This document shows, piece by piece, positions 524 through 54,522 of a stretch of DNA of 60,258 nucleotides. Location of the stretch: positions 1 through 60,258 of the forward strand of contig JAMCYI010000004.1 in NCBI GenBank assembly GCA_023474215.1, given 5' to 3'. Within the stretch, counting starts at the first letter, position 1, and each line of letters starts with the position of its first letter. A model generated the notes under the pieces. It had not been told where the DNA came from, ran no database searches, and was given only the letters and a program-made list of their open reading frames with translations. This DNA is from Patescibacteria group bacterium (GTDB lineage: Bacteria > Patescibacteriota > Minisyncoccia > UBA6257 > GWB1-50-10). Both the position numbers and the translations under genes were made by a program.

Positions 524-800
524 TTTTTATTTTTTATTTGACTTTACTTACTATTTTCCCTGTCCTTTTGAGACAGAGTCGACCTTTGGTACTTGTTTTT
601 CGGAATGCCGCCCTGCGGAACCGTTCGACCTGGTCCGCCGACGACACTAGTAGCTATAAAACAGCGAATCCCCACTTGGAAGTGGGGAAACGCTAAAAGC
701 CTCTTATGCATAAATCCGCCGTGAGGCGGATTAAGCAATTCGTACTTCATAGCGCTTGGCCTCACTCCAAGCTCTAACTGATGTTTTCTATTATAACAAA
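524..800 (-). promoter_or_regulatory. Promoter (TTGAAT-N16-TATAAT with TG extension) and ~260-nt multi-hairpin 5' leader
   Basis: Minus strand ttgaat...tgttataat at about 790-817. Downstream hairpins include gcttgg/ccaagc, aatccgcc/ggcggatt and tccccact/agtgggga. Confidence 0.55.
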
Positions 801-819
801 CTACGAGAGAAATTCAAGA

Positions 820-948
820 ATTGGTGCATATCATCTACCAATCCCCGATCCCTCTACCAAGATAAAACGAAGAAATCGTGGGAATGTTACGAAAATAGAT
901 AATGGATAATAGATATTGGGCACCTGGGATTGGATATCGGCTAAAAAG
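820..948. repeat. Degenerate inverted heptamer array downstream of four-helix-bundle gene
   Basis: aatagataatggataatagatattggg...ggattggata opposed to tatcatctaccaatccccgatccctctacc. Confidence 0.55.
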
Positions 949-1311
949 CTAGGATTTATGCAGGTTTTTAGTTGTCGCTATATAGCCGTTCAATCTCACC
1001 AGGAGATTCCTGAGATCACCCACCAGATCCTCGGCTTTCTTGCCATCAACTATCCCCCTCTCTTTTAGTACATCAACCCAATGGATGGACTCAAATAAAG
1101 AACCCCTCGCATTGTAGTTAAATTTATTTCTATCGAGGTAATGAAACCGGCCAAAACCCTCTGCGACATTCGCCGCTATTGAGTCTATGGCAGTGATAAA
1201 CTGATCTCCAATTACCTTTCTCGTCCGCCAATCAAATTGCTCATAAAGCGCCCACCCTTTCCCCGAAATAATTCTTGCAAGCTTATAAACTTCTAGATCC
1301 CCCAACTCCAT
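949..1311 (-). CDS. Four helix bundle protein (IVP / 23S-intervening-sequence-protein family)
   Basis: 120 aa with family motifs DLEVYKLA, DQ...A.DSIAANVAEG.GR and ARGSL.E. Confidence 0.85.
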   Translation of the reverse strand: MELGDLEVYKLARIISGKGWALYEQFDWRTRKVIGDQFITAIDSIAANVAEGFGRFHYLDRNKFNYNARGSLFESIHWVDVLKERGIVDGKKAEDLVGDLRNLLVRLNGYIATTKNLHKS

Positions 1312-1314
1312 CTT

Positions 1315-1355
1315 ACGTCCATTATCCTCTATCTATTCTCTTCTATCCAGCATCT
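1315..1355. repeat. Degenerate heptamer array upstream of four-helix-bundle gene
   Basis: Minus strand ggataga-agagaat-agataga-ggataat-ggacgta just before the ATG; partly complementary to the downstream array. Confidence 0.5.
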
Positions 1356-1356
1356 G

Positions 1357-2109
1357 TCAGATGCGCCAGGAGACGGTGGCGAAAATGATCGATGAAATGA
1401 CGATAAAAAGGGTTATTTCCCGAAAAACAAAGGAGGAATTCAAAAACCCGCGCACATGGGCCAGCACCGTATCCCGGGATATGAGTAAAAGGAGCGACAT
1501 AAAGGCTGCCGCATTCAAGAAACCGAGAGGTAGAAAGACGACGATCGTCGCAAGCTCGGCGGAAAGAACGCCGAGGGTCATGCCGTAGAGGCGCATTTTG
1601 CGCGATTCCCACGAAGCGAAGGTTTGCCAATACTCCTTAAAGAGCCAGTAGACCACCGCAAAAGCGAAAAAGAGCCACCAAAACTCACTCCAGAATGAAT
1701 TTTCCGAAAATGAAGGTGTCCGCGAAAAAAGAACCGCAAAAAAGGAAAAGGCGACGGCGATGGAAGTCAAGCCGTACGCAAAAAACTTATTCGAAAAAAC
1801 GGCTCCCATGAGTCCCAAAAGGGCAAAGAGGATCAAGCCGTAGACCAGAAGGAGGAGACTCGGGAGCGAAAACGAGGCAAGCGCAAGGAGAAACACAATC
1901 TGAAGCAGCCAAAAAGAAAATCTGAAATCGCGGCGGGCGGCACCCGCTGTCAAGTAAACGTAGAGGAGAACGCATAAAAATCCAAAAACCGCGAAGAAAG
2001 AGAACGAAGCGAGGTAGACCAAGTAAAGCGCCGCAACCCCGAGGAGCGTTTTCTCAAGCAACCTCCACGTTGTTCGATTTATTAACGAAGATATGAACCT
2101 CTTTACCAT
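1357..2109 (-). CDS. Multi-pass membrane protein, unknown function
   Basis: 250 aa, about 8 hydrophobic segments, overlaps the clpB 3' end. Confidence 0.7.
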
Positions 2110-4681
2110 CTTTCAAAAGTCCCCTGACCATTTTGTCCGCCAAAGCATCCACGATCACCTTTTGGATCAAACGCTTGATCGGCCGCGCGCCGTAGTTCGG
2201 ATCGAACCCGTGCTCAACCAAATAGCGCCGAACTTCCGGTTTGATCTTCAAGGATATTCCCCTGCCGGCAAGGCGACGCTCGACCTCGCCAATCTGGATG
2301 TCGACGATATGTTCGACATCCTTCGGCGTCAGCGATTTGAAGATGATGGTCTCGTCGAGCCGGTTCAGAAATTCCGGCTTGAAGGTTTCCCGCAAGGATT
2401 CCATCACCTTTTCCCTGAATGATTCTTCTTTCGTTTCCAACTCCTCGGCTTCGCCGATCTCAAATCCCAAACCGGACATTTCTTTGAGGTAATGGCTTCC
2501 GACATTCGATGTCAAAATAATGATCGTATTCCTGAAATTGACCGTTTTCCCCTTGCCGTCGGTCAGCCGTCCGTTATCTAAAACCTGGAGGAGGATATTA
2601 AATACCTCCGGATGCGCTTTTTCGATCTCATCGAACAAGATCAAGCTGTAAGGCCGGTGCCGGACAATCTCCGTAAGCTGGCCGCCTTCTTCATGACCGA
2701 CGTACCCCGGCGGCGAACCGATGAGGCGCGATACCGCATGGCGTTCCATATATTCCGACATATCGATCCGGACGAGCGATTTTTCGTCGTTGAACATGAA
2801 AGCCGAGAGCGCACGCGCAAGTTCCGTCTTCCCGACGCCGGTCGGACCCAAAAACATAAAGGATCCGCTCGGCCGGTCTTCATCCGCGAGGCCGACGCGC
2901 GATCTGCGGAGCGCACGCGCAACCGCATTGATTGCCTCTTCCTGTCCCACCACGCGTTTTGCGAGCTCTTCTTCGATGCGGGCGAGTTTCTTCACCTCGG
3001 ATTCGAGCATTTTTGAGACCGGTATCCCCGTCCACCGCGAAACCACGGCAGCGATATCTTCCTCATCAACCGTTTCTTTGATGAATTTGCCGGCGCTTTG
3101 CTTTGTCTTTCCCCCTTTTTCCGTTTTTTGATAATCGCGCTCTGCCTTGGGAAGTTTCCCATACCGGATCTCTGCAACTTTGTCGAAATTCCCCTCCCGC
3201 TCGGCAAGCTCCGCCTCCCTCCGCAAATCCTCGATCTGCTTCCGAAGATCATGAAGGCCGCTTGCGCCCTTTTTCTCCGTTTCCCACCGCGCGGAAAGGT
3301 GGGTGTTCTCCAATTTCAATTTTTTGAGCTCTGCATTGATCTCTTTCAAGCGCGCCGGTGTCTTTTTCGAACCGTCCTTCGCGAGAGCCGATTTCTCAAC
3401 CTCGAGGCGCATAATCTCCTTCCGCACTCCTTCGATTTCGGAGGGAATGCTGTCCGATTCCAAGCGCCGCGCGGCAGCTGCCTCATCGATCAAATCGATC
3501 GCCTTGTCCGGCAAGAATCGATCGGTGATGTAGCGAGCGCTCAAATTGACCGCCGTAATGATGGCGTCATCGGTGATCTTCAAGCCGTGGTGCATTTCGT
3601 ATTTTTCTTTGAGTCCGCGGAGGATCGAGATCGAATCTTCAATCGAGGGTTCTTCAACCATCACCGGCTGGAAGCGCCGCTCGAGCGCCGCATCTTTCTC
3701 GATGTATTTTTGATATTCCTTCAAGGTCGTCGCGCCGATCGCGTGGAGTTCGCCGCGCGCAAGAGCCGGCTTCAAAAGATTCGAAGCATCAACCGCGCCT
3801 TCCGCGGCACCGGCGCCCACGATCATATGAATCTCGTCGATGAAGAGAATAATCTTTCCTTCCGCTTTTTCGATCTCCCGGAGAAACGCTTTCAACCGGT
3901 CCTCGAACTCGCCCCGAAACTTTGTTCCGGCGACCAAGGACCCCAGATCGAGCGTCAAAACTTCTTTATTTTTCAAAGGCTCCGGAACGTCGCCTTGAAC
4001 GATCTTTTCGGCGAGGCCTTCGACGATCGCGGTCTTTCCGACGCCCGGCTCGCCGATTAAAACCGGATTGTTCTTTGTGCGGCGCGAAAGGATCTGCATC
4101 ACCCGGCGGAGTTCTTCTTCCCGCCCGATCACCGGGTCGAGCTTCCCTTGCTTCGCCTTGTTTGTGAGATTGACGGCATATTTTTCGAGGACCTGGAACT
4201 TTGATTCCGGCGTCTCGTCCGTCACCCGAACCGACCCGCGAAGATCGTGAAGCGTGCGGTGCAGCAAGTCGCGCTTCACGCCCGCCTTCATCAAAATTTC
4301 GGCCGCCGGCGAAGGGACTTCGAGAAGCGCCAAGAACAAATGTTCGCAAGAAACGAACTCGTCCTTGTAGCGGCTTGCCACTTCCCCCGCTTTGTCCAAG
4401 ATCTTGATGATCTCCTGAGAAAGATACATTTGCCCCACGCTTCCGCTTGAAGCGAAAACCTTGGGGAGCAATTCGAGCGATTTTAAAACTTCGCGCTCGA
4501 GGCCCGGCAGATCGATGTTCATTTTTTCGAGGAGCGGGCGGACGAGCGTTTGATCGTCCCCCAAAAGCGCGTAAAGAAGATGAGTGGCCCGAAGTTCGCC
4601 GTGATTGTACCGGGCAACCATGTCCTGCGCCGATTGCAGGGCTTCCTGTGCTTTGATGGTAAACCGTTGAAAATTAGGCAT
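2054..4681 (-). CDS. clpB: ATP-dependent disaggregase ClpB
   Basis: 875 aa. Clp N-domain, Walker A GEPGVGKT and GPTGVGKT, Walker B LFIDEIH and LFDEIEK, coiled-coil M-domain, GYVG pore loop. Confidence 0.95.
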
Positions 4682-4699
4682 ATATGTTAATTATACGTC

Positions 4700-4748
4700 A
4701 TTCTACCTCCCTTTACGAGGATTAGCAAGAGAGCGGGTTGAGCGCTAA
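4700..4748 (-). promoter_or_regulatory. CIRCE-like (HrcA) operator overlapping a sigma70 promoter of clpB
   Basis: Plus strand 4722-4748 TTAGCAAGA-N9-GAGCGCTAA versus consensus TTAGCACTC-N9-GAGTGCTAA. Minus strand TTGCTA-N17-TAGAAT. Confidence 0.7.
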
Positions 4749-4752
4749 TACG

Positions 4753-6036
4753 CTATTGGCTTAGGCTGTCGGGGCGCTTGGCAAGCGTGACGGGAATGTT
4801 CAAGGTCTGATTCCCCCGCTGAACTTTCAACGTCACCGTGTCGCCGACGTTGTACTGGTCGATGAGCGATATGAGCGTATTTGTGGCGTCCACGGTGCTC
4901 CCATTCACCTCGAGGATGATGTCCTCCGCCTTGAGCCCCGCTTTCTCGGCAGGCGAACCGGGAACGATCGCCGGTCCGTTGGTATCGCCGCGAAGGAGCG
5001 CGCCGTGATCAACCGACAGGTTTTGCGTTTTTGCCATGTCTGCCGTAATGGAAAGATACCGCACGCCGAGGTACGGCGTTTCAATGACGCCGCTCTTTTG
5101 AACCGATTCGATGTCCTTCTTTGCTTGATTGATGGGTATCGCAAAACCGATGTTCTGCGCGCCCGAAACGATCGCCGTATTGATGCCGATGACATCGCCG
5201 TTCAAATCCAAGAGCGGCCCGCCGGAGTTGCCGGGGTTGATGGCTGCGTCGGTTTGCATGACGCCTTGGATCGTTTCAGAGCCGTAGGTCGCGCCCGACG
5301 CGGTGATCGTCCGCGCAAGACCCGAGAGGACGCCAACTGAGACGGTATTGCGGAATTCTCCGAGCGCGTTTCCGATTGCAATCATCGTCTGGCCGAGTTG
5401 CAATCCGTCGGAATTGCCGAGAGTCACCGTCGGAAGTCCGGTTGCATCGATCTTAATAAGCGCCAGATCCTGCACGGGATCGCGCGCCAAAACCTTCGCG
5501 TCGTATTTTTTTCCGTTATTCAAAAGGACGGTATAGGTGGCCGATGTATCGGAAACGACATGCTTATTCGTCACGATAAGGCCGTCGGGTGAGACGATGA
5601 ATCCCGAGCCGCCGCCAACTTCTTGGAGCTTGCTGCCTTTTTGGCACGGCACGTATGTTTGGAAGTTGCCACCGAAGCCGTTGCCGAAGAACTGCTGAAA
5701 CTCCGGCGGAAGGTTAGAGAACGGGCTGAATTCCTGCGGACACTGCTCGATGATCGGCACATCCTTCGAAACGACGATCGAGACGACGGCGGGCGACGCT
5801 TTCTTTACCGCATCGATGACCGCCTGCTCGTAACTATCTGCCGACTGGTACGGCGTCGTGGTCGCCCCGGCAGAACCGGTCGAAGTCGTGGACGTCGAGG
5901 AGGGCTTACCGCTCAAAAAATCCCAAATATTGCTCAAGAAATCCGCGTGAGCGGTACCGGAACTCGCGACCGACCCGACAAAACCGCCTACGAGAGCAGC
6001 AATAATAATGTAGGATGCTACTTTTTTACTGGACAT
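4753..6036 (-). CDS. htrA: HtrA/DegP-family serine protease with PDZ domain
   Basis: GSGFIVS, VTNKHVV, DLALIKI, QTDAAINPGNSGGPL, C-terminal PDZ, N-terminal signal/TM. Confidence 0.92.
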   Translation of the reverse strand: MSSKKVASYIIIAALVGGFVGSVASSGTAHADFLSNIWDFLSGKPSSTSTTSTGSAGATTTPYQSADSYEQAVIDAVKKASPAVVSIVVSKDVPIIEQCPQEFSPFSNLPPEFQQFFGNGFGGNFQTYVPCQKGSKLQEVGGGSGFIVSPDGLIVTNKHVVSDTSATYTVLLNNGKKYDAKVLARDPVQDLALIKIDATGLPTVTLGNSDGLQLGQTMIAIGNALGEFRNTVSVGVLSGLARTITASGATYGSETIQGVMQTDAAINPGNSGGPLLDLNGDVIGINTAIVSGAQNIGFAIPINQAKKDIESVQKSGVIETPYLGVRYLSITADMAKTQNLSVDHGALLRGDTNGPAIVPGSPAEKAGLKAEDIILEVNGSTVDATNTLISLIDQYNVGDTVTLKVQRGNQTLNIPVTLAKRPDSLSQ

Positions 6037-6048
6037 ATTTACTTACTA

Positions 6049-6828
6049 TTACTTGATCTCGTACTGAAGTGTTACAGAAACGTTTACCTCGTTGGAGCCG
6101 GGTTCGATGGTCGGCGCGGGCACCGCTGCACCGCCTGCCGAACCTACCGACATCGTTCTTGCATAATCATACATCGGCTGCACGGTATTGTTGCTTGCAT
6201 TGATGGAAAGAAGGCGGCCCACCGAAAATCCCGCTTCGCTTGCGATCTCTTGTGCCTGCGCTTCGGCTTTTTGGATCGCCTGCGCCCGAGCTTCGGCTTG
6301 AACCGACGTCGGATCGTCGATCGTGAAGTTGAGCGACGAAACCGAATTTGCGCCGTTCGAGACGACGCCCGAGAGGATATCGCCGATCTTCGAGAAATCC
6401 CTGACTTTAACGGCGAGGTTTTGCGTCACCGTATATCCGACGATGGTCGGCACGCAGGGCGTTACGCTCGAGAGCGGATTCTGACAATACTGGTACCGCG
6501 GCGAAATGTTGTAACCGCTCGTCTGAATGTCTTTTTGATCGACGCCTTCGCCCTTCACAAAGCCCACGACCTTATTCATGGCAGTGGTGTTCTGCGATTG
6601 GAGCGATCCCAAATCTTTGCCGCCTTCCGTCACGACGCTCGCCGTGAATTCGGCAACGTCGGGAGCGGCAGTCGCCTTACCGCTCGCGGTAACGTAAAAG
6701 CTCCGATACGACGACGGCTGGACCGCATTGCCGTACGTACCGGCCGCCGAAAGCGCCGCATAGCCGACCGCGAGCACCGCAAGAATGATTGCGACGTATA
6801 ATACCCCCTTTGTTTTCTCTGTATTCAT
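6049..6828 (-). CDS. SIMPL domain (DUF541) protein
   Basis: N-terminal TM; V.ASG.A.A.PD.A, DIQTS.Y.I.P.Y and IEPG..EV.VSVTL.YEI patterns. Confidence 0.85.
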   Translation of the reverse strand: MNTEKTKGVLYVAIILAVLAVGYAALSAAGTYGNAVQPSSYRSFYVTASGKATAAPDVAEFTASVVTEGGKDLGSLQSQNTTAMNKVVGFVKGEGVDQKDIQTSGYNISPRYQYCQNPLSSVTPCVPTIVGYTVTQNLAVKVRDFSKIGDILSGVVSNGANSVSSLNFTIDDPTSVQAEARAQAIQKAEAQAQEIASEAGFSVGRLLSINASNNTVQPMYDYARTMSVGSAGGAAVPAPTIEPGSNEVNVSVTLQYEIK

Positions 6829-6844
6829 ATTCCTATTATAACAA

Positions 6845-6932
6845 ATTTTGAATTATAGAATTTTGAATTTCGATTGAATTCGAGAATTCATAAATTAAAT
6901 AATTCATTCGAAATTAAATCATTCGAAATTTA
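6845..6932. repeat. Inverted heptamer-repeat element, copy A1 (AATTTTG/TTCGAAA flavour)
   Basis: aattttgaatttcgattgaattcgagaattcataaattaaataattcattcgaaattaaatcattcgaaatt; nearly identical to 8830-8908. Confidence 0.8.
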
Positions 6933-8216
6933 AACTATCTTTTTGATTCTTCGGATTACCTCATCTATCTCTTTTCTCGTTGTTGTAATGCCGAAGCTGA
7001 ACCGGACGCTCCCCCGCACGCGCTCTTCGGGAAACCCCAGGGCATGGAGAACATGCGACGGCGTGAACGCCCGGGCCGAACAGGCCGAACCGGCCGAAGC
7101 CGCGATCCCCGCTTGATCGAGCTGTACCAAAAAATCGCCGGTGAATTCGCTCGGGAAATAAACGTTCAGGATATGCGGCGCATCGGCATTCCCGTTGATC
7201 TCCGCTTTTTTATACGCAGCCTTGAGCTTCTTCCAAAAATAATTTTTGGCATCCCCGACATACTTTGCGTTTTTGTTCCGCGACGCATAGGCGAGTTCCA
7301 CCGCCTTTCCGAAGCCGGCGACCGCGGGCGTGTTCTCCGTGCCAGAACGAAAACCGAACTCTTGGCCGCCACCCGTCACCTGCGGTGACAGAAATTTCGA
7401 ATTTTGAATTTCGAATTTTGAATTTACGTACAAGGCGCCGACGCCTTTCGGGCCGTACACTTTTTGGCCGGAGAGGGTCATAAGGTCGACGCCGAGTTTT
7501 TCGACATCGCAATCGAGGTACATCAACGCCTGCGCAGCGTCGGTATGAAAGAGCGGGTAGGAGGAGAAACTTGCCTCACGAAAAGACGGGGTCTCACTCG
7601 GCCAGCGACTCGTTCGCCCCTTGGCTCTCGCCCTCGCTCTCTCGCTTCGCTCGAACCCTGCCCGCTCGGACTCCGAGACACTTTTCTTAGAGACAAGTTT
7701 CTCCTCCTTAAATTTTTCTATGACGCTTGAGATTTTTTTAATTGGCTGGATGGTACCGATTTCGTTGTTCACATACATCACGGAGACGAGGATGGTTCGT
7801 TCATCGAGCGCTTCTTCCAATTTTTTGAGATCGACGACCCCCTTTTTGTCGACTGGGAGGACGACGACCTCGACGCCGTCACGTTCAAGCTCATGGGCGG
7901 TATCGAGAACCGATTCGTGTTCGATAGCCGAAACGATTACCTTGGGGGTTGGTCCTCCGTACCCTCGCACGATCCCGCGGAGCGCTAGGTTATTCGCTTC
8001 CGTTGCGGACCCGGTAAAAATGACTTCGCGGAATTCGGCGCCGATCGAGCGGGCAAACACCTCGCGAGCGGCATCCACGGCGGCCATCGCTTCTTGGCCG
8101 AATGAGTGGAGCGAACCCGGGTTGCCGTATTTCTCGGAAAAATACGGCAGCATTGTTTTTAAAGCCTCCGGACGGACTGGAGTTGATGCCGCATAATCTA
8201 AATAAATCTTTTTCAT
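6930..8216 (-). CDS. iscS: Cysteine desulfurase (IscS/NifS-type) carrying two repeat-derived in-frame insertions
   Basis: YLDYAAST, GNPGSLH, FTGSATEANN, HTDAAQ, SGQKVYGPKGVG, RSGTEN, AGSAC. Start placed at MKKIY (8216); the track starts at 8231. Confidence 0.9.
   Translation of the reverse strand: MKKIYLDYAASTPVRPEALKTMLPYFSEKYGNPGSLHSFGQEAMAAVDAAREVFARSIGAEFREVIFTGSATEANNLALRGIVRGYGGPTPKVIVSAIEHESVLDTAHELERDGVEVVVLPVDKKGVVDLKKLEEALDERTILVSVMYVNNEIGTIQPIKKISSVIEKFKEEKLVSKKSVSESERAGFERSERARARAKGRTSRWPSETPSFREASFSSYPLFHTDAAQALMYLDCDVEKLGVDLMTLSGQKVYGPKGVGALYVNSKFEIQNSKFLSPQVTGGGQEFGFRSGTENTPAVAGFGKAVELAYASRNKNAKYVGDAKNYFWKKLKAAYKKAEINGNADAPHILNVYFPSEFTGDFLVQLDQAGIAASAGSACSARAFTPSHVLHALGFPEERVRGSVRFSFGITTTRKEIDEVIRRIKKIV
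7391..7425. repeat. Heptamer-repeat tract in frame within iscS
   Basis: gaaatttcgaattttgaatttcgaattttgaattt encodes NSKFEIQNSKF. Confidence 0.75.
7559..7708. mobile_element. Palindromic miniature element inserted in frame in iscS (150 bp)
   Basis: Perfect 15-bp inverted ends aggaggagaaacttg / caagtttctcctcct. Core ctcgccctcgctc...gcccgctcggactccgagac is shared with 20089, 34208 and 42156. Confidence 0.75.
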
Positions 8217-8228
8217 GGTTTCAAGTAT

Positions 8229-8362
8229 CAAACAAAAACCTAAATCCTAAGCACTAAATTCTAAACAATATCCAAATCCAAAATCATAATGACCGAAACG
8301 TGTTTGGTATTTGGCGCTTTGAGCTTTATTTAGGATTTAGGATTTGGAATTTAGGATTTCGT
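8229..8362. repeat. Inverted heptamer-repeat element (CTAAATC/GATTTAG flavour)
   Basis: cctaaatcctaagcactaaattctaaac ... tttaggatttaggatttggaatttaggatt, between the mgtC-family stop and iscS. Confidence 0.8.
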
Positions 8363-8363
8363 C

Positions 8364-8816
8364 TTATTCTGGGATTTCCTTCACGCCGATCTTGCGGGTA
8401 ATGAACAAGACGAGAGCCAAGCCGATCGCGCTTAAAAACGCGAACGAGAAAAGTCCGATGCCGCACAAGATGCCCAAGCTCGCAACGACCCACACCGTTG
8501 CCGCGGTCGTCAAACTCCGCACCTTATTCCCTTCATGAAGAATGACGCCGGCGCCCAAGAAACCGACGCCGACGACGATGTTCCCGACAACCGTAAGGAA
8601 TCCGCTGTTCCGCGCGATGACATCTGCGAGATTGCCGACTTGAACGACATACGGCAGCGTGATGCCGACCATCGTGAAGATGGCCGCACCCGCCGCAACC
8701 ATGAGATCAGTCCGAATACCCGCTTCTTTGCCCATAAGTTCCCGCTCGAGGCCGATGATCGCGCCGACCACGACCGCGGCACCCAGGCGAAGAAGCATGT
8801 CTTGAAGAGTTAACAT
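8364..8816 (-). CDS. MgtC/SapB family membrane protein
   Basis: LLRLGAAVVVGAIIGLERE...AGIRT...; GVGFLGAGVI; SLTTAATVW. Confidence 0.9.
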   Translation of the reverse strand: MLTLQDMLLRLGAAVVVGAIIGLERELMGKEAGIRTDLMVAAGAAIFTMVGITLPYVVQVGNLADVIARNSGFLTVVGNIVVGVGFLGAGVILHEGNKVRSLTTAATVWVVASLGILCGIGLFSFAFLSAIGLALVLFITRKIGVKEIPE

Positions 8817-8829
8817 GAGTTAATTATAC

Positions 8830-8908
8830 AATTTTGAATTTTGAATTTCGATTGAATTCGAGAATTCGTGAATTAAGTAATTTACTCGAAATTAAATCAT
8901 TCGAAATT
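8830..8908. repeat. Inverted heptamer-repeat element, copy A2
   Basis: aattttgaattttgaatttcgattgaattcgagaattcgtgaattaagtaatttactcgaaattaaatcattcgaaatt; near-duplicate of 6845-6932. Confidence 0.8.
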
Positions 8909-8911
8909 CTC

Positions 8912-9487
8912 TTATTCGTACCTGGGGTTGGTTTCTTTGACGCCGGCCTTGTAGTTCGCATACCGCGCAAGAGCAAAGAACAAACTCGAAAGCCGGTTCA
9001 TGAATATCCCCGATTCTTCCGATATCTTTTTCTTTTCGCCGAATTTCACGAGCGTCCGTTCGGCCCGCCTCGCCAAGGTCCGCGCAAAGTCGAGCGATGC
9101 TCCCATCGGACTCCCGCCGGGGATGATAAAATTTCTGATGGGCGGAATCTTCGAATCGATCTCCAAAATGACGCTTTCCATGAACTGCGATTTCTCCACA
9201 TCGATCTTTTTAAAATCCTTCACCGAATATTCGAAACCGACGGCTGCAACTTCCGCCTGGAGCATGAACAGGCTCTCCTCGACGAAGATGAGGATCTTGT
9301 CGAAGGAAAGTTTTTTGAGCTTGAAATTATTTTTCGGAGTTATCTTCGAGCGGCACACGCCGAGCCACGCGTTCAATTCGTCGAGATCGCCCAGCACGTC
9401 GAAGAGCGGCGAGCTTTTCGGCAGGCGCTTGTTCCCGTATAAACTCTTTCCTCCGTCCCCCCGGCCGGTATAGAAGTTAGTCTTCAT
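8912..9487 (-). CDS. PduO-type ATP:cob(I)alamin adenosyltransferase family protein
   Basis: FYTGRGDGGKS, LGDLDELNAWLG, FIIPGGS...LDFART.ARRAER, NRLSSLFFALARY. Confidence 0.9.
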   Translation of the reverse strand: MKTNFYTGRGDGGKSLYGNKRLPKSSPLFDVLGDLDELNAWLGVCRSKITPKNNFKLKKLSFDKILIFVEESLFMLQAEVAAVGFEYSVKDFKKIDVEKSQFMESVILEIDSKIPPIRNFIIPGGSPMGASLDFARTLARRAERTLVKFGEKKKISEESGIFMNRLSSLFFALARYANYKAGVKETNPRYE

Positions 9488-30620: not shown

Positions 30621-30660
30621 AGGAGCGGTTTCATCAAAAGAACCGCTCCTACTTTTTTAT
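30621..30660. terminator. Intrinsic terminator at convergent junction with ileS
   Basis: aggagcggtt...aaccgctcct-acttttttat. Confidence 0.7.
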
Positions 30661-33600
30661 TCCGATCCAGATCGGGTCGCCGTCGAATTTCGTCTCGATC
30701 TCGACATCGAACTTGTCGGAACGCCTAAGAAGAATGTCCGAAGCGTTTATTTCTTTCATCAGGAGCTTTTTATTGCGCTCCACAATATTTTTAACCTCGG
30801 GTTGGGCTTCGACGAGAAGCGTTATCTTGTCTTTGGGGACAAACCCGCCGTCTTGGCGAAGATCTTGGATCATGCGCACGAGCTCGCGAACCGTTCCCTC
30901 TTCTTTGAGCTCCGGCGTGATCACCGTGTCGAGGACGAAATCCTCTTTTAACTTGGAGTCGAAGGTCACTTCTTTTACATTGATTTCATCCTTTAAAATT
31001 TCGAGAAGAGCCGCATCCATCTTCGATCTCGAATCCTTGACCGCGAGCGACGCGAGGGGCTGGCGTACTTTGATCCCCAATTCCGCACGCTTTGCGAGAG
31101 CAGCACTCGCGAGATCGCGCACCGTCTTCATGCCGTGTAACAATTTCGAGTTCCGAGTTTCGAGTTTTGGGCTGGTCTTAGGCCATTCCTCCAGGTGGAC
31201 CGAGAGCTCACCCTTCAAAGAGACGGACTGATAGAGCGCATCGGCGAAGAACGGCATAAAAGGAGCAAGGAGCTTGGTAAGTTCGGTAAGACAATACCGG
31301 AGCGTCGCCGACGCCGCGGCATAATCCTTCTTGTTGTCCGGCTTTTGGAGCCGCCTCCGCGAACGGCGGATATACCACCGCGAAAGGTCGTTCACGAACT
31401 CTTCAATCGACTTGCCGGCGCCGCCGATATCATACGCATCAAGGGCTTTGGTCGAAACAGCGATGGCTTCGTCGAGGCGCGCGATGACCCACCGATCGAG
31501 AACGTTCGATTTCGCGGTCGGCGCTTTATATTTGGCGCTTTTATCGGCGTACGTCCGGTAGAAAACGTACGAGTTGTACATCATGAGGATGAACTGACGG
31601 AGCACTTTCCCGAGGTCTGCTTCGTCGAAGCGCTTCGGTTCGCCCGGCGCATTCACGGTATAAAAATACCACCGGACGGTATCGGCGCCGTATTTTTGGA
31701 TCATGTCCCACGGGCTCACGGTATTTCCCTTTGACTTCGACATCTTTTGGGCGTTCTTATCGAGCAGGAGGCCCAAGGAGATCACGTTCCGGTACGGTGC
31801 TTTTTTCTTCAAGAGCGTTGCGACGGCAAGGAGCGTATAGAACCAGCCGCGCGTTTGATCGATCCCTTCAACGATGTAATCGGCGGGATACAGAAGCTTT
31901 GTCTTGTTCTCGAAAGGATAGTGGTCTTCGGCGAAGGGCATCGATCCGGAATCGAACCAAACGTCCGCGACCTCGGGAATCCGCTTCATCGTCCCGCCGC
32001 ATGTGCATTGAAAAACGGCTTCGTCGACGTACGGCTTATGGAGATCGATCTCGCCGGTATCGTTCCGGGGGATCATTTTGAGGCTGAGCTTCCGGATTTC
32101 GGCGAACGTTATAAAATCATCGCCCCGCTTTTCTTTTTCAGCGATCGCCTCGCGCTCCGTCCACCCTTCGGCAACCTGGAAAAGCATCCAAATCGGGTAC
32201 TCGTGCGTCACGAGAAGGATGTTCTTTCCTTCATACTTCAACTCGCATTCCTTGAGGAAATTCCACAAGCGCGTCCGAAGATCGCGGACCGACTCCCCTC
32301 CTTCGGGCCGCCGCTCGAATTTCGACTGAAAGGTCGGGAAAAGCACGTGGTATTTCTCATCGTGGCAGCCCATGAGGTCCGCCCCCAATTGGATCTCTTC
32401 AAGACGCTTGTCCACCTTCGCATCCGCCGTGCCCAGGATCCCAAGATCAATCTCATCGGTTTCCTTCGTCCGCAAAATATCGGACGTGATGACGACGTCG
32501 ATCTTCTTCCCTTTCCGGGCAAGCTCGTGCTTGAACTTTTTGATCGACAATTCGACTTGCCGCTTGCCACGGGCGGTCAGGTGGAATTTCGTTTTTGTCG
32601 CATCGATGATATCAAGGACGTTGTTTTCCGCTTCGCCGTGGCGCATGACCCAATAGCTGTTCTTCGGGCGGCCGAGTTTTTTTGCGAGCTCGCCGACGCC
32701 CCCTAAGACTTCGGTCCTGCCGCATTTTTTACAGACCCAAACCGGAAGCGGCGTTCCCCAATACCGTTCGCGCGAGATCGCCCAATCCTTGACATCCTTC
32801 AGCCATTCGCCGAATCTTCCGTTTTTGATGGTCGCAGGGACCCAGTTCACCGTCTTATTCGAAGCCAAAAGCTCGCGCTTCAATTTGGACATGCCGATGA
32901 ACCACGAATCGCGCGCGTAGTAAAGGATCGGCGTGCCACATCGCCAGCAAAACGGGTATTCGTGCTCGTACTTTTCGGTCTTTAAAAGGAAATTCCGCTC
33001 CTTGAGAAGTTCGAATATCTTTTCTTCGGTTTCTTTCGCCTTCACGTACATCCCCGCAAGCTCAGGGACATCGGCGGTGAATTTCCCCAACGTATCGACG
33101 GTATGATGTTTCGGCAAGCCGACCTTCGTTCCCAATTGGTAATCGTCCTCGCCGTACATGACGGCCGTATGAACGACGCCGGTCCCGTCTTCGGTCGTCA
33201 CGAAATCGGCCGGATATACCCGATACGAGCTCTCTGTTTTCAATTTTTTGACGTCGAAGAGCGGCTCATACCGCAAGCCGACGAGATCCTTGCCACTGAA
33301 AATATTGAGTATCTGGTATTTAGTATTGAGTACTTTATCTGCCAAAAGAGAAGCGATAATGTATTTTTCATCGCTCCCTTCAATACTGACTACTGTATAC
33401 TTGATACTCTCGCCAACTGCGAGGGCGACATTTCCGGGGAGCGTCCACGGCGTCGTCGTCCATGAAAGGACATAGGTATTGCCATCGGTCGTAAAGCTTC
33501 TGCCGATCGTCTGGTTCGGCAAAAGCCTGAACTTCATGTACACCGACATATCCTCGGTCGTCTTGTACCCTTGGGCGAGCTCGTGCGACGACAAGGCCGT

Positions 33601-34161
33601 CCCGCACCGCGTGCACCACGAAATCACCTTATGCCCCTGGTAGAGGAGTTTTTTCTTGTGGACCTCGGAGAAGATCCACCACAAGGTCTCCATGTAGTTC
33701 TTGTCGTACGTGATGTACGGATGATCCATGTCGAGCCAAAAGCCGATGCGCTCAGTGATCCGTTCCCACTCGTCCTTGTATTCCCATACCGACTCGCGGC
33801 ATTTTTTATTGAACGCCGCAATGCCGTATTCTTCGATCTCTTTCTTCGATCTCAACCCGAGCTTTTTTTCAACCTCGATCTCAACCGGCAGACCGTGCGT
33901 ATCCCATCCGGCCCGGCGCGGAACGGAAAATCCGGCCATTGTCCTGTACCGGAGGACGATGTCCTTGAACGAGCGCGAGAGCACATGATGGATCCCCGGA
34001 CGGCCGTTCGCCGTGGGGGGGCCTTCATAAAAAACGAACTTCTTTTTAGCTTTGTTCTTTTTGAGCGATTTCTCGAAAATGCCGTTTTCTTTCCAGAATT
34101 TCAACACCTTCTCTTCGACTTCCGGCAGGGAGAATGCGGAATTGTCCAAATTATCAAGCAT
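30649..34161 (-). CDS. ileS: Isoleucine--tRNA ligase (type 2) with inserted histidine-phosphatase domain
   Basis: FYEGPPTANG, GWDTHGLPVE, WTTTPWTLPGN, GTGVVH, DWAISRERYWGTP, KMSKSKGN; insert with MRHGEAENN. Confidence 0.95.
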   Translation of the reverse strand: MLDNLDNSAFSLPEVEEKVLKFWKENGIFEKSLKKNKAKKKFVFYEGPPTANGRPGIHHVLSRSFKDIVLRYRTMAGFSVPRRAGWDTHGLPVEIEVEKKLGLRSKKEIEEYGIAAFNKKCRESVWEYKDEWERITERIGFWLDMDHPYITYDKNYMETLWWIFSEVHKKKLLYQGHKVISWCTRCGTALSSHELAQGYKTTEDMSVYMKFRLLPNQTIGRSFTTDGNTYVLSWTTTPWTLPGNVALAVGESIKYTVVSIEGSDEKYIIASLLADKVLNTKYQILNIFSGKDLVGLRYEPLFDVKKLKTESSYRVYPADFVTTEDGTGVVHTAVMYGEDDYQLGTKVGLPKHHTVDTLGKFTADVPELAGMYVKAKETEEKIFELLKERNFLLKTEKYEHEYPFCWRCGTPILYYARDSWFIGMSKLKRELLASNKTVNWVPATIKNGRFGEWLKDVKDWAISRERYWGTPLPVWVCKKCGRTEVLGGVGELAKKLGRPKNSYWVMRHGEAENNVLDIIDATKTKFHLTARGKRQVELSIKKFKHELARKGKKIDVVITSDILRTKETDEIDLGILGTADAKVDKRLEEIQLGADLMGCHDEKYHVLFPTFQSKFERRPEGGESVRDLRTRLWNFLKECELKYEGKNILLVTHEYPIWMLFQVAEGWTEREAIAEKEKRGDDFITFAEIRKLSLKMIPRNDTGEIDLHKPYVDEAVFQCTCGGTMKRIPEVADVWFDSGSMPFAEDHYPFENKTKLLYPADYIVEGIDQTRGWFYTLLAVATLLKKKAPYRNVISLGLLLDKNAQKMSKSKGNTVSPWDMIQKYGADTVRWYFYTVNAPGEPKRFDEADLGKVLRQFILMMYNSYVFYRTYADKSAKYKAPTAKSNVLDRWVIARLDEAIAVSTKALDAYDIGGAGKSIEEFVNDLSRWYIRRSRRRLQKPDNKKDYAAASATLRYCLTELTKLLAPFMPFFADALYQSVSLKGELSVHLEEWPKTSPKLETRNSKLLHGMKTVRDLASAALAKRAELGIKVRQPLASLAVKDSRSKMDAALLEILKDEINVKEVTFDSKLKEDFVLDTVITPELKEEGTVRELVRMIQDLRQDGGFVPKDKITLLVEAQPEVKNIVERNKKLLMKEINASDILLRRSDKFDVEIETKFDGDPIWIGIKK

Positions 34162-36009: not shown

Positions 36010-36441
36010 ATGGCCATATTTGCGGAAAACAAAAGAGCTCTCTTCGACTACGAGATCCTCGGGGCATTCGAGGCCGGCATTGTGCTGAAAGGCTACGAAG
36101 CAAAGGCCGTAACGAGCGGCCGCGTGAACCTTTCGGGATCCTACGCTTCCCTCGTGCGGGGCGAGCTTTGGATCGTGAATCTCGACATCCCGCCCTATCA
36201 GCCAAAGAATATCCCCGGCCCGTACGATCCCAAGCGGTCGAGAAAACTCCTCGTCACCAAAAGCGAACTCAATGAACTTGTCGGAAAGACGAAGGGGTTG
36301 ACACTTATTCCGATGAAGATGTATAGTAAGCGCGGCAAAATAAAGCTCGAGATCGGACTCGCAAAATCGAGGAAGAAGAAAGACAAGCGCGAGGTCATCA
36401 AGCAACGCGAAACTCAGAAAGAAATCAAACGTTTTATCTAG
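36010..36441 (+). CDS. smpB: SsrA-binding protein SmpB
   Basis: AENKRA.FDYEI...EAGIVL.GYE.K, DPKRSRKLL, KLEIGLAKSRKK.DKRE.IK.RE. Confidence 0.96.
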   Translation: MAIFAENKRALFDYEILGAFEAGIVLKGYEAKAVTSGRVNLSGSYASLVRGELWIVNLDIPPYQPKNIPGPYDPKRSRKLLVTKSELNELVGKTKGLTLIPMKMYSKRGKIKLEIGLAKSRKKKDKREVIKQRETQKEIKRFI

Positions 36442-36605
36442 AGCCCACCTCAAGAGTATCTTTCGTCACGAGCCTCCGGTTTTCCGAGCGAGGCAAGGAA
36501 CGACGACGAAGCTGTATCGGCAAGGCAGATCCAGCGAGGAGGAGTGACGAAGCCGCAGCCGGAAAAGCGAAGGTACAGTAGAAAGGATATTCTTGAGGTG
36601 GGCTC
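36441..36605. mobile_element. Large palindromic element between smpB and ssrA
   Basis: Arms gagcccacctcaaga(gtatctttc) / (gaaaggatat)tcttgaggtgggctc; inside, two degenerate units gcgagg...gacgaagcYgYa.cgg. Confidence 0.7.
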
Positions 36606-42155: not shown

Positions 42156-42437
42156 GGGAAGCCGGCTCGCTTTTCTCAAACACGCTGTCAATCCGCCCCA
42201 GCCGGCGGATTGCGCTCGCTCTCGACCTCGCTCGGAGAGGATCGGAAAGGTTCGTGCGGCAGCTCTCGGAGGTTCAAAAGCTCGGTTCCGCCGGTGAGGC
42301 GGATTTTGAACCGAGAGCGCAGGGCGGCGCTTGCCGCCGGAGCAAGCGAACGCCCGGTGCCGGTAGGGCCTTTCCGATCCTCTCCACCATGCCCGCTCGG
42401 TCTCCGAGACGGTTTGATCAGAGCGAGCCGGCTTCCC
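42156..42437. mobile_element. Nested palindromic miniature element after murB stop (282 bp)
   Basis: 16-bp arms gggaagccggctcgct / agcgagccggcttccc; inner 17-bp arms ggagaggatcggaaagg / cctttccgatcctctcc; same scaffold as 20089 and 34208. Confidence 0.85.
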
Positions 42438-50789: not shown

Positions 50790-50919
50790 TATACCCTCTC
50801 CGAAATCCAAAGCCCAAATGACAAATGTCAAATCAATATCAAGGCTCAAATTTCAAATTTTGACATTCGGCTGTTTGGATTTAATTTGATATTTGGAATT
50901 TGGATTTTGAAATTGACAT
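50790..50919. repeat. Inverted heptamer-repeat element (CAAAT/ATTTG flavour) ending in the rpsT -35 box
   Basis: cgaaatccaaagcccaaatgacaaatgtcaaatc ... ttggatttaatttgatatttggaatttggattttgaaattgaca; TTGACA-N17-TACTAT follows. Confidence 0.75.
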
Positions 50920-50953
50920 ATCCCCCCGCAAAAGGTACTATATATCTACTTAT

Positions 50954-54325: not shown

Positions 54326-54344
54326 ACAAACTCCCGAACGGCGA

Positions 54345-54522
54345 AATAAAATTCCCCGAGCACGTACATGCTCGGGGAATTTCTTCTCGCTGATGAAAGG
54401 TCTGTGGGCATAATGCCGTAAGGAGAGGCTTTATTAAGATTCGCTCGAGGAGGTGCCCAGCCGGAACCAAGCAGTCCGAAATCTGGAGCAAATCTCCTGC
54501 CCACAGGCCTCTCATCAGTGAC
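54345..54522 (-). ncRNA. Candidate standalone structured ncRNA (6S-like size)
   Basis: Minus-strand promoter TTGACA(54558-54553)-N17-TAATAT(54535-54530); long closing stem ctgatga.aggYctgtgggca / tgcccacagRcct.tcatcag; terminator at 54349-54382. Confidence 0.55.
54349..54382. terminator. Perfect 14-bp hairpin, bidirectional terminator candidate
   Basis: aaattccccgagca-cgtaca-tgctcggggaattt. Confidence 0.75.

What the first reader, a model, noticed from the sequence alone, without database searches (positions are those of the whole stretch)
820..1355. Four-helix-bundle gene bracketed by inverted heptamer arrays: possible gene-carrying version of the heptamer elements
Seen: the gene is preceded by GATAG-type 7-mers (ggataga agagaat agataga ggataat) and followed by complementary TATCC/TATCT 7-mers, which also face a further GATAG-type array at 820-870. 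This resembles the architecture of the empty arrays elsewhere in the window. Established: this family is of unknown function and shares a fold with the RNA-binding DGR accessory protein Avd. Inference: gene plus arrays form a small mobile or RNA-guided unit, and the empty arrays are its non-autonomous relatives.
Basis: partly seen in the sequence, partly recalled or inferred. Interest (0 to 1): 0.75.

Follow-up and report, generated by a model that had tools for sequence, protein, structure and literature searches.

The report
IVS-type four-helix-bundle gene cassette
A small gene of unknown function sits between two mirror-image runs of short repeats. Relatives show that gene and repeats are gained, lost or replaced together as one block, and the same layout holds across this gene family and a second, unrelated one, which gives a testable handle on both.

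Summary
The core observation holds. The 120-aa gene at 949-1311 (minus strand) is a PF05635/TIGR02436 four-helix-bundle ("23S rRNA IVS") protein. A 31-nt GATAG-type array (1318-1348) precedes it and its reverse complement (891-919) follows it: 19/23 complementary, hairpin z = -5.6. The claimed third array at 820-870 is not significant.

The bracket is a family rule. 39 of 44 homologous genes from other CPR genomes have complementary flanks, against 6 of 70 control genes. Units differ from locus to locus; period 7 is commonest.

At this exact site, relatives are filled (466 and 475 nt), filled with a different subfamily (424 nt, 25% identical protein), decayed (195 nt) or empty (1 nt). So arrays plus gene are one insertion unit.

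The known Coxiella 23S rRNA IVS has the same layout: tandem heptamers, a 28-bp stem and RNase III cutting. GxxExxY nuclease genes carry analogous 9-nt arrays.

Mismatches in the arms show no G:U excess (73 vs 72), which points to a DNA-level role for the arms.

I found no evidence of recent transposition, RNA guidance, or shared units with the gene-less arrays.

Verdict: a new variant of the IVS-type element. How it moves is unknown.

The parts
891..1356 (-). Whole insertion unit (466 nt), lying between the stop codon of the membrane gene and the conserved GTAAC motif
   Evidence: the same interval is 475 nt in L010, 424 nt in L067 (a different FHB subfamily), 195 nt in L064 (decayed) and 1 nt in L061 (empty). 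GC is 42.5% against 51.8% for the window, in the lowest 1.2% of windows.
1318..1348 (-). 5' array GGATAGA AGAGAAT AGATAGA GGATAAT GGA. It is the left arm of the inverted repeat and contains promoter-like hexamers TGGATA-17-GATAAT, with the -10 box ending 9 nt before the ATG.
   Evidence: (I1). A -10 box 6-12 nt before the ATG is seen at 12 of 48 genes in this window.
949..1311 (-). Four-helix-bundle protein gene (120 aa), PF05635 / TIGR02436
   Evidence: Pfam E = 9e-18 and TIGR02436 E = 6e-18. AF2 pLDDT 91 with four helices. Foldseek: 2GSC TM 0.87-0.93, 2RLD, bAvd 4DWL TM 0.75-0.83. dN/dS is far below 1 in orthologue pairs.
920..948 (-). Spacer between the stop codon and the 3' array. In the orthologue L010 the equivalent stretch is itself the complementary arm.
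891..919 (-). 3' array CCAATATCTATTATCCATTATCTATTTTC, the reverse complement of the 5' array (right arm)
   Evidence: TRF 894-915, period 7, 3.1 copies. IR I1. 22-bp closing stem in folds.
853..890 (-). Host sequence just outside the cassette: GTAACATTCCCACGATTTCTTCGTTTTATCT. It is conserved in filled and empty alleles and is probably the terminator region of the membrane gene (a strong hairpin in L067).
822..860 (-). Claimed 'further array' (GGTAGAG GGATCGG GGATTGG TAGATGA). Not supported as a partner of the 3' array.
   Evidence: 15-nt, 80% IR (I5). Hairpin z = -0.99.
1357..2109 (-). Upstream host gene, a 250-aa membrane protein with no Pfam match. Used as the anchor for the filled/empty test.
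790..817 (-). Promoter-like site TTGAAT-16-TATAAT of the downstream surface-protein gene, conserved in all lineages

Best explanation
This is a free-standing member of the kind of element known from 23S rRNA genes as an ORF-carrying intervening sequence (IVS). It is a roughly 466-nt insertion cassette made of a four-helix-bundle gene plus two terminal arrays of about 7-nt units in inverted orientation.

**Shown**
- Arrays and gene form one unit. The unit sits exactly between the stop codon of a host gene and that gene's terminator region.
- In related species the unit is present, replaced by a different subfamily, decayed or absent as a block.
- The protein is under purifying selection.
- The bracket is a family-wide rule.

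**Inferred**
- The arrays are the cassette's ends and act first at the DNA level. They behave like multi-site terminal inverted repeats and are kept alike by copying between arms.
- The 5' array also supplies the gene's own leaderless-type promoter.
- In read-through transcripts from the upstream gene, the two arms pair into a roughly 22-bp duplex. RNase III would cut this duplex, as it does in the Coxiella rRNA IVS. That is why such cassettes are tolerated inside operons and rRNA genes.

**Speculative**
- The Avd-like pentameric protein binds the nucleic acid of its own ends and helps rare movement or maintenance.
For: **Family and fold:**

**Bracket in the window:**

**Bracket across genomes**
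- IR score >=10 in 39/44 homologues against 6/70 controls, MWU p = 6e-14, Fisher p = 1e-18.
- Complementarity is locus-specific: the true partner ranks first in 19/44 loci and in the top 3 in 31/44.
- Flanks are tandem in 29/44 upstream and 18/44 downstream cases, against 0/88 shuffles.
- In a re-scan of the control ORFs, six scored IR >=12. Three are further PF05635 genes, two are GxxExxY genes, and the sixth adjoins a GxxExxY cassette.

**Block gain, loss and replacement at this site**
- Insert sizes are 466, 475, 424, 195 and 1 nt.
- FHB in WIN and L067 are 24.6% identical, while ClpB is 83% identical.
- L011 carries a 141-nt deletion allele.

**Foreign-looking composition:**

**Purifying selection:** dN/dS = 0.044/0.835. 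Arms are kept although synonymous sites are saturated.

**DNA-level reading**
- 73 G:U-type against 72 A:C-type mismatches.
- L049 shows a new inverted copy of the 3' arm beside it.
- Unit length is family-specific: about 7 nt here and 9 nt for GxxExxY, which also has a conserved CACGAA core.

**Own promoter:**

**Dependence on host transcription:** the upstream gene is co-directional in 39-41 of 43 loci, against 76% background (p = 0.011 to 0.0006). Gaps are about 55 nt.

**Precedent:** PMC4990558 describes the Coxiella IVS. Three tandem GACAGAT heptamers precede the S23p ORF, their number varies between strains, the terminal stem is 28 bp, and RNase III cleaves at the first repeat.
Against: - No recent movement was seen. 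All contigs at >=95% identity keep the same synteny, and no near-identical protein occurs elsewhere among 5.8 billion clusters.
- No target-site duplication or conserved terminal nucleotides could be defined.
- The four-helix bundle has no known catalytic fold, so any transposition would need host or trans-acting enzymes.
- Array units are idiosyncratic. They do not track protein similarity across non-syntenic loci (rho = 0.05, Mantel 509/2000). This argues against sequence-specific end recognition by the protein.
- If the gene's own promoter is used, its mRNA lacks the 5' arm, so the RNA stem forms only in read-through transcripts.
- RNase III cleavage was not tested, and rnc was not located for this organism.
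- The whole-transcript fold is not unusually stable (z = -1.1).
- The polarity of events at the site is unresolved, because ClpB distances are star-like. The empty allele may be ancestral or may be a precise loss.
- One cyanobacterial plasmid homologue shows no obvious arrays.
Confidence: 0.55

Rival explanations
1. The arrays work purely at the RNA level. They are 5'/3' UTR pairing elements selected to form a stem that controls stability, processing or translation of the FHB mRNA. The gene is an ordinary resident host gene, not an insertion.
For: - A 22-bp closing stem is predicted.
- Complementarity is retained despite saturated neutral divergence.
- The Coxiella stem is an RNase III substrate.
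- There is a strong co-orientation bias with upstream genes.
Against: - Non-Watson-Crick positions show no G:U excess (73 vs 72), unlike stems under RNA selection.
- The -35 and -10 hexamers lie inside the 5' arm, with the -10 box 9 nt before the ATG. The gene's own transcript would therefore lack that arm.
- The block is present, absent or replaced at one site, and its composition looks foreign.
Confidence: 0.2
2. The cassette is an autonomous DNA transposon-like element. The four-helix-bundle protein binds the tandem units at both ends, as multi-site transposon ends are bound, and drives excision and insertion. The gene-less arrays are its non-autonomous derivatives.
For: - The ends are inverted arrays of repeated short units.
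- The block is gained and lost at the outer edges of the arrays.
- Two subfamilies occupy the same site.
- Unit length differs by cargo family: about 7 nt against 9 nt, with a conserved core for GxxExxY.
- The gene-less arrays and the cassette are both missing from one lineage.
Against: - The protein has no catalytic fold.
- Units differ from locus to locus and do not co-vary with the protein.
- The gene-less arrays in this window share no units with this cassette.
- There are no multi-copy near-identical elements and no TSD.
- There are no near-identical copies in other contexts.
Confidence: 0.12
3. The flanks are only an AT-rich promoter and terminator that resemble each other by chance or low complexity. 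On this view there is no meaningful architecture.
For: - The 5' array contains promoter-like hexamers.
- The periodicity of the 5' array is weak.
- The third array is not significant.
Against: - z = -5.6 for the arm pair.
- 39/44 homologues against 6/70 controls.
- Partner-specific complementarity.
- 0/88 shuffled flanks are tandem.
Confidence: 0.03
4. The gene is the Avd accessory protein of a diversity-generating retroelement, or the cassette RNA is copied by a reverse transcriptase acting in trans (retro-mobility). In that case the arm duplex would play the part of the long-range duplex that flanks the template in DGR RNA.
For: - The fold matches bAvd and the DGR RNP.
- DGR RNAs carry a long-range duplex flanking TR (10.1101/2023.10.23.563531).
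- DGRs are common in CPR (own knowledge).
Against: - A crude YxDD scan of ORFs of 200 aa or more found no RT-like gene in the window, and only one YLDD match (L015, not followed up) within 3 kb in the 50 homologous loci.
- No TR/VR repeat pair was seen.
- The subfamily is absent from viral contigs.
- bAvd Pfam matches are weak or absent for this subfamily.
Confidence: 0.08

Closest known systems
ORF-carrying intervening sequences (IVS) of 23S rRNA genes (Leptospira, Coxiella burnetii, Xanthomonas; S23p / PF05635 ORF)
   Same: - Same protein family.
- The ORF is enclosed by terminal inverted repeats that form a long stem.
- In Coxiella the 5' side consists of tandem heptamers (GACAGAT x3, copy number variable between strains) directly before the ATG, and the stem is cut by RNase III (PMC4990558).
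- Both are regarded as selfish, horizontally spread elements whose way of moving is unknown.
   Different: - This cassette lies between protein-coding genes, not in rRNA helix 25 or 45.
- Its protein is under strong purifying selection. The Coxiella ORF is reported as decaying and probably unexpressed.
- It has promoter-like hexamers of its own.
- The family-wide rule, and the filled, empty and replaced alleles shown here, were not found described in the papers I could search.
ORF-less rRNA IVS (Salmonella, Yersinia and Photorhabdus, helix 25/45; about 80-110 nt)
   Same: These are short stem-loops without a gene, sporadic between copies and strains. They are analogous to the gene-less inverted arrays of this window (6836-6936, 8225-8365, 8822-8916, 50800-50920).
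   Different: - The arrays here lie in intergenic regions and 5' leaders, are built of tandem units, and differ in sequence at every site.
- No processing data exist for them.
REP/REPIN sequences with RAYT (TnpA-REP) genes
   Same: A single-copy gene is flanked by inverted copies of a short structured repeat, and the same repeat also occurs without the gene elsewhere in the genome.
   Different: - RAYT is a Y1 HUH transposase with a known catalytic fold.
- REPs are near-identical genome-wide. Here each locus has its own units, and the gene-less arrays do not match the gene's arrays.
Transposon ends with multiple subterminal binding sites (Tn7 TnsB sites, Mu L1-3/R1-3, plant CACTA and Ac/Ds subterminal repeats)
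   Same: Several short direct repeats at each end, with the two ends in inverted orientation. This is the nearest formal analogue of the arrays. The comparison rests on my own knowledge.
   Different: - Those sites are conserved within an element family and are bound by a DDE transposase.
- No such enzyme, TSD or conserved tip is seen here.
DGR accessory protein Avd (bAvd, PDB 4DWL, 8UB7)
   Same: Same fold: TM 0.75-0.83. [quoted passage not shown]
   Different: No RT gene, TR/VR pair or phage context was found. Sequence similarity is not detectable for this subfamily.
Heptamer direct repeats of Cyanobacteria, Beggiatoaceae and Bacteroidetes (STRR; TAACTGA repeats, PMC4679880)
   Same: Intergenic tandem 7-nt units, often ending just before start codons, of unknown function and with a patchy phylogenetic distribution.
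   Different: Those are mainly direct arrays of one genome-wide unit. They are not paired with their complement across a gene, and no link to PF05635 genes is reported.

Membership tests
PF05635 / TIGR02436 four-helix-bundle ('23S rRNA IVS protein', S23p) | Match to the family profile above the curated threshold | tested here: met
   Pfam 64.9 bits (cut-off 33.8). TIGR02436 65.1 bits (cut-off 24).
PF05635 / TIGR02436 four-helix-bundle ('23S rRNA IVS protein', S23p) | Four-helix up-down bundle like XCC0516 (2GSC) and BT_0352 (2RLD) | tested here: met
   AF2 pLDDT 91, helices 7-24, 28-54, 63-84 and 90-116. Foldseek TM 0.87-0.93 to 2GSC. Profile hits to 2RLD and 2GSC.
PF05635 / TIGR02436 four-helix-bundle ('23S rRNA IVS protein', S23p) | Homopentameric ring | not tested
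   Both PDB relatives are deposited with five chains. No multimer model was made.
rRNA-type intervening sequence (IVS) element | ORF or loop enclosed by terminal inverted repeats able to form a stem of about 20-30 bp | tested here: met
   23-nt arms, 19/23 complementary. 22-bp stem in MFE and centroid folds.
rRNA-type intervening sequence (IVS) element | Located inside an rRNA gene (helix 25 or 45 of 23S) | tested here: not met
   It lies between a membrane-protein gene and a PG_binding_1 gene. There is no Rfam hit in 1-2500.
rRNA-type intervening sequence (IVS) element | Excised from the transcript by RNase III | not testable with these tools
   This needs RNA end-mapping or in-vitro cleavage. 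The only evidence is the precedent in Coxiella.
rRNA-type intervening sequence (IVS) element | Sporadic presence or absence between related genomes | tested here: met
   Insert of 466 / 475 / 424 / 195 / 1 nt at the orthologous site in five lineages.
Diversity-generating retroelement (Avd component) | Adjacent reverse transcriptase and a TR/VR repeat pair | tested here: not met
   The crude YxDD scan found none in the window and one unverified YLDD match (L015) among the 50 homologous loci. The neighbours are ClpB, a membrane protein and a surface protein.
REPIN/RAYT-type or MITE/IS-type mobile element | Many near-identical copies of the terminal repeat, or of the whole element, in the genome | tested here: not met
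   The arm sequence is unique in the 60-kb window. Units differ between loci and sites. The closest protein anywhere is the 71% orthologue. Only 60 kb of this genome was available.
REPIN/RAYT-type or MITE/IS-type mobile element | Encoded transposase with a known catalytic fold, and target-site duplication | tested here: not met
   The protein is a four-helix bundle only. No direct repeat is seen at the junctions.

The most novel reading that the evidence does not exclude
PF05635 four-helix-bundle genes and GxxExxY PD-(D/E)XK genes may be the cargo of one previously unrecognised class of minimal mobile cassettes. The ends of these cassettes are inverted arrays of tandem short units, with a family-specific unit length of about 7 nt and 9 nt respectively. 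On this reading the encoded protein recognises the repeated ends as DNA or RNA and promotes copying or insertion at stop-codon-proximal sites and into rRNA helices. rRNA IVSs and many gene-less hairpin arrays in CPR genomes would then be products of the same process. This would give the Avd-like fold a first function outside DGRs.
Probability: 0.2. Interest if true: 0.85.

Novelty: new variant of a known kind. Interest (0 to 1): 0.68.

Why it matters
PF05635 ('23S rRNA IVS protein', four-helix-bundle protein) is a large family: 4,219 clusters at 50% identity match this subfamily's profile. The literature read here still calls it functionally uncharacterised. GxxExxY proteins are in the same position.

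- **A structural rule for both families.** Both are systematically bracketed by inverted tandem arrays. The bracket travels with the gene as one insertion block. This turns two 'hypothetical protein' families into a defined genetic element with clear parts.
- **A link to rRNA IVSs.** The result ties free-standing copies to the rRNA IVS.
- **Direct experiments become possible.** These include binding of the protein to its own arrays, RNase III cleavage of read-through RNA, and arm-swap or arm-deletion constructs.
- **Relevance to genome annotation.** The result may explain part of the abundant hairpin and heptamer arrays in CPR intergenic regions and leaders. These matter for promoter and terminator annotation in these genomes.

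Tried and rejected
- **Rfam scan of 1-2500 at E <= 1:** nothing found.
- **Other four-helix-bundle genes in the window:** none.
- **Other GATAGA-type arrays in the window:** none beyond chance.
- **The 820-870 'third array':** hairpin not significant.
- **Contexts of the identical protein:** all nine contigs have the same synteny, so they say nothing about mobility.
- **RNA-stem signature from G:U against A:C mismatches:** no bias in either family.
- **Protein/unit co-variation (Mantel test):** not significant. Only the most similar non-syntenic pairs show slightly higher cross-complementarity (10.2 against about 8.2).
- **Protein-level remnant in L064 or L061:** not significant with HMMER. 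Only a 26-nt, 85% nucleotide match across the stop codon in L064, colinear with the downstream homology.
- **Viral contigs:** no relatives of this subfamily.
- **Plasmid collection:** one cyanobacterial homologue without obvious arrays.
- **Density of periodic hairpins in the four syntenic 13-21-kb regions:** too few to test a copy-number correlation.
- **Literature:** six searches found no description of the bracket beyond the Coxiella IVS note.
- **DGR reading:** rejected for lack of RT and TR/VR.
- **Arm polarity as evidence on gene orientation:** considered and rejected. The purine-rich polarity of the 5' arm is the same on both strands, so it cannot say anything about gene orientation.
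Full report
**What is there**

The window comes from a CPR (Patescibacteria, Paceibacteria/Jorgensenbacteria-like) genome. The same locus occurs at 99.3% identity in GCA_023380715.1 and at 95.5% in GCA_027423705.1.

On the minus strand the gene order is ClpB (2054-4681), a 250-aa membrane protein (1357-2109), a 120-aa ORF (949-1311), and a PG_binding_1 surface protein (start at 523).

The 120-aa ORF is a clear PF05635 / TIGR02436 four-helix-bundle protein.
- An AlphaFold model (pLDDT 91) has four helices.
- It superposes on XCC0516 (2GSC, TM 0.87-0.93), on BT_0352 (2RLD) and, more loosely, on the DGR protein bAvd (4DWL, TM 0.75-0.83).
- It is the only such gene in the window.

**The observation**

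Read on the coding strand, the 45 nt between the membrane gene's stop codon and the ATG contain GGATAGA AGAGAAT AGATAGA GGATAAT GGA (1348->1318). After the stop codon, beyond a 29-nt spacer, comes CCAATATCTATTATCCATTATCTATTTTC (919->891).

- The two are reverse complements: 23-nt arms, 19/23 paired.
- Joined by a short loop, they fold at -27.6 kcal/mol, and 0 of 200 shuffles are as stable (z = -5.6).
- A 22-bp closing stem is kept in the MFE and centroid structures of the whole 481- and 571-nt RNAs. Those long folds as a whole are not exceptional (z about -1.1 to -1.4).
- The 3' array is a clean period-7 repeat (TRF). The 5' array is closer to period 14.
- The 'further array at 820-870' is not supported. 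It is only a 15-nt, 80% match, and the hairpin has z = -0.99.

**The bracket is a family rule**

I fetched 50 loci encoding homologues (40-86% identity) from GTDB species representatives. Nearly all are CPR, with a few from Chloroflexi and Aerophobetes. By eye almost every one has a tandem array before the ATG and its reverse complement after the stop codon, with different units in different loci: GTAATTA, GTAACTT, GAAATAG, GAGATAA, GGATATT and others.

- The best ungapped complementarity between 80 nt upstream and 80 nt downstream reaches a score of 10 or more in 39/44 of these genes. Only 6/70 other genes in the same loci reach it (MWU p = 6e-14, Fisher p = 1e-18).
- The true downstream flank is the best partner of its upstream flank in 19 of 44 loci, and among the top three in 31. 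So the complementarity is locus-specific and is not a composition effect.
- Tandem structure is present in 29/44 upstream and 18/44 downstream flanks, against 0/88 shuffled flanks.
- Period 7 is the commonest (19 flanks, plus 6 at period 14), but periods 8, 10 and 11 also occur.
- A re-scan of the control ORFs found six with a high score. Three are further PF05635 genes. Two are GxxExxY PD-(D/E)XK genes (PF13366/TIGR04256). The sixth is the gene next to one of those.

I followed the GxxExxY lead with 80 metagenomic loci.
- 43/76 have complementary flanks, against 0/52 control genes (p = 1.5e-13).
- The units are almost always 9 nt long.
- They share a conserved core, CACGAA upstream and TTCGTG downstream.
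- Cultured examples exist in a Gemmatirosa plasmid and a Treponema plasmid.

**Filled, empty, replaced and decayed alleles**

All contigs carrying the identical protein have the same synteny. I therefore used the membrane protein as an anchor for more distant relatives. The order ClpB - membrane - - PG_binding is conserved in four lineages whose ClpB proteins are 82-90% identical.

The interval between the membrane gene's stop codon and a conserved GTAAC...TTCGTTTTATCT motif varies as follows.

| Lineage | Interval (nt) | State |
|---|---|---|
| Window | 466 | Filled |
| L010 | 475 | Filled; orthologous FHB 71% identical, with different arrays that are still complementary |
| L067 | 424 | Filled with an FHB of another subfamily (24.6% identical) and TAGGGAA/CCCTAAT arrays |
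| L064 | 195 | Remnant; array-like flanks and a 26-nt match across the FHB stop codon |
| L061-63 | 1 | Empty |

- The empty allele has no arrays, so the arrays belong to the insert.
- One close relative (L011) has a 141-nt deletion that removes part of the 5' array and 36 codons.
- The cassette is a compositional outlier. Its GC is 42.5% against 51.8% for the window, and GC3 is 0.47 against 0.61-0.70 in neighbouring genes.
- Proteins 71-73% identical occur in unrelated contexts, including two in one MAG with different units.
- Against recent mobility, there is no near-identical copy in any other context among 5.8 billion protein clusters, and no relative in viral contigs.
- The order of events at the site cannot be resolved, because the lineages are roughly equidistant.

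**How it may work**

Five results bear on the mechanism.

1. **The protein is functional.** dN/dS is far below 1 in orthologue pairs (for example 0.044/0.835). Synonymous sites between the window and L010 are saturated (pS = 0.76), yet both keep complementary arms. Something therefore maintains the complementarity.
2. **That something does not look like selection on a sense-strand RNA helix.** Among non-Watson-Crick positions in the arms, G:U-type and A:C-type mismatches are equal. The counts are 43 vs 38 for FHB and 30 vs 34 for GxxExxY, 73 vs 72 pooled. A DNA-level process fits better, such as copying between arms or symmetric binding sites. In L049 a new inverted copy of the 3' arm lies right beside it.
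3. **The 5' array probably holds the gene's own promoter.**
   - It contains TGGATA-17-GATAAT, with the -10 box ending 9 nt before the ATG.
   - In this window, 12 of 48 genes have a TATAAT-like box 6-12 nt before the ATG, which is a leaderless-type arrangement.
   - About 9 of 31 homologous loci show the same, and only 6 of 31 have an SD-like motif.
   - The gene's own mRNA would therefore lack the 5' arm, and the stem can form only in read-through RNA.
4. **Cassettes depend on host transcription.** They sit tightly between genes (gaps of about 55 nt) and are co-directional with the upstream gene in 39-41 of 43 loci, against a 76% background. Here the cassette lies before the host gene's terminator region.
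5. **There is a direct precedent.** The Coxiella 23S IVS has an S23p ORF preceded by three tandem GACAGAT heptamers whose number varies between strains. It has a 28-bp terminal stem, and RNase III cuts at the first repeat (PMC4990558).

Putting these together, I read the cassette as an IVS-type insertion element outside rRNA.
- Its inverted arrays are its ends, acting at the DNA level, and also its promoter.
- When transcribed through, they make an RNase III-type duplex that renders the insertion harmless.
- Whether the Avd-like protein binds these ends is open. Family-specific unit lengths and the conserved GxxExxY core hint at protein-end recognition.
- However, FHB units do not track protein similarity (rho = 0.05, Mantel 509/2000).

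**The gene-less arrays**

- The window has inverted arrays without a gene at 6836-6936 and 8822-8916 (two related copies), 8225-8365 and 50800-50920.
- In the syntenic region of the FHB-less lineage (L069-72) all three nearby sites lack them. The gaps there are 37, -4 and -4 nt.
- L074 has other arrays where the window has none, for example a 113-nt insertion between the TATAAT box and the ATG of clpB.
- Units differ at every site, and none match the FHB arrays.
- So the gene-less arrays are dynamic insertions of the same architectural kind. They are not recognisably non-autonomous copies of this cassette.

**Comparison and novelty**

- The element meets the protein-family and stem criteria of an ORF-carrying IVS but is not in an rRNA gene.
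- It is not a DGR. A crude YxDD scan found no RT-like gene beside it and only one unverified match in the 50 related loci, and no TR/VR pair was seen.
- It is not REP/RAYT- or IS-like, since it has no conserved multi-copy repeat, catalytic fold or TSD.
- Six literature searches found the heptamer observation only for Coxiella. None described the general bracket, the second cargo family or the allelic series.
- I rate it a new variant of a known kind, with a moderately high interest score.

Noticed in passing
window 6836-6936 and 8822-8916; 8225-8365; 50800-50920: These are gene-less inverted period-7 arrays in intergenic regions, each abutting the TATAAT box of the next gene. The first two are related copies. 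They are absent at the orthologous sites of lineage L069-72, and other lineages have different arrays at the same or other sites, for example a 113-nt insertion in the clpB leader of L074.
   Followed up: partly
window 6933-8216 (-), at 7393-7425 and 7559-7708: The Aminotran_5 (cysteine-desulfurase-like) gene carries lineage-specific in-frame insertions. A heptamer array encodes a duplicated NSKFEIQ, and a 150-nt palindrome (19-nt arms, 95% complementary) encodes about 43 extra residues. Relatives are 389, 430 and 470 aa long, with different inserts at the same spots.
   Followed up: partly
window 31144-31167 and 33298-33411, inside the 1170-aa ORF 30649-34161 (-): There is a period-7 array (TTTCGAG) and a 32-nt inverted repeat inside a long coding region. 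They may be further in-frame repeat insertions.
   Followed up: no
window-wide; for example 8 nt before clpB (ATG at 4681), and 6 nt before the ATGs at 6828 and 8816: A TATAAT-like hexamer ends 6-12 nt upstream of the ATG in 12 of 48 predicted genes, mostly at 6, 8 or 9 nt. This suggests leaderless or near-leaderless transcripts in this organism.
   Followed up: partly
window 524-785 (-): The 5' leader of the PG_binding_1 surface-protein gene is about 260 nt long (270-420 nt in relatives). It has conserved hairpins (for example CCGCCTCACGGCGG) in four lineages, and 16 of 45 predicted pairs show compensatory changes. There is no Rfam match. It is a candidate new cis-regulatory RNA.
   Followed up: partly
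window 850-1350 compared with L002/L003: Between two haplotypes that differ by 5-10% in the flanking DNA, the cassette tract 850-1350 has a single difference. The tract edge at 1350/1351 nearly coincides with the cassette's 5' edge. The genomes are mosaics (no differences in 4000-7400), so this may be one recombination tract. It is also consistent with exchange of the cassette between strains.
   Followed up: partly
L076-L155; L156 (NZ_CP007129.1, about 437.6 kb); L157 (NZ_AP025289.1, about 331.3 kb): GxxExxY PD-(D/E)XK genes (PF13366/TIGR04256) from many environments are bracketed by inverted arrays of 9-nt units with core CACGAA / TTCGTG. 43/76 have such flanks, against 0/52 control genes.
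   Followed up: partly
L049:3370-3500 compared with L044: In one of two orthologous cassettes (91% identical proteins), an extra purine-rich array has appeared between the stop codon and the 3' array. It is complementary to that 3' array, so it looks like a local inverted duplication creating a gene-less hairpin.
   Followed up: no
window 36441-36605, 42156-42437, 54341-54521: These are further long inverted repeats (24-46-nt arms, 76-88% complementary) that are not built of heptamers. Their nature was not examined.
   Followed up: no
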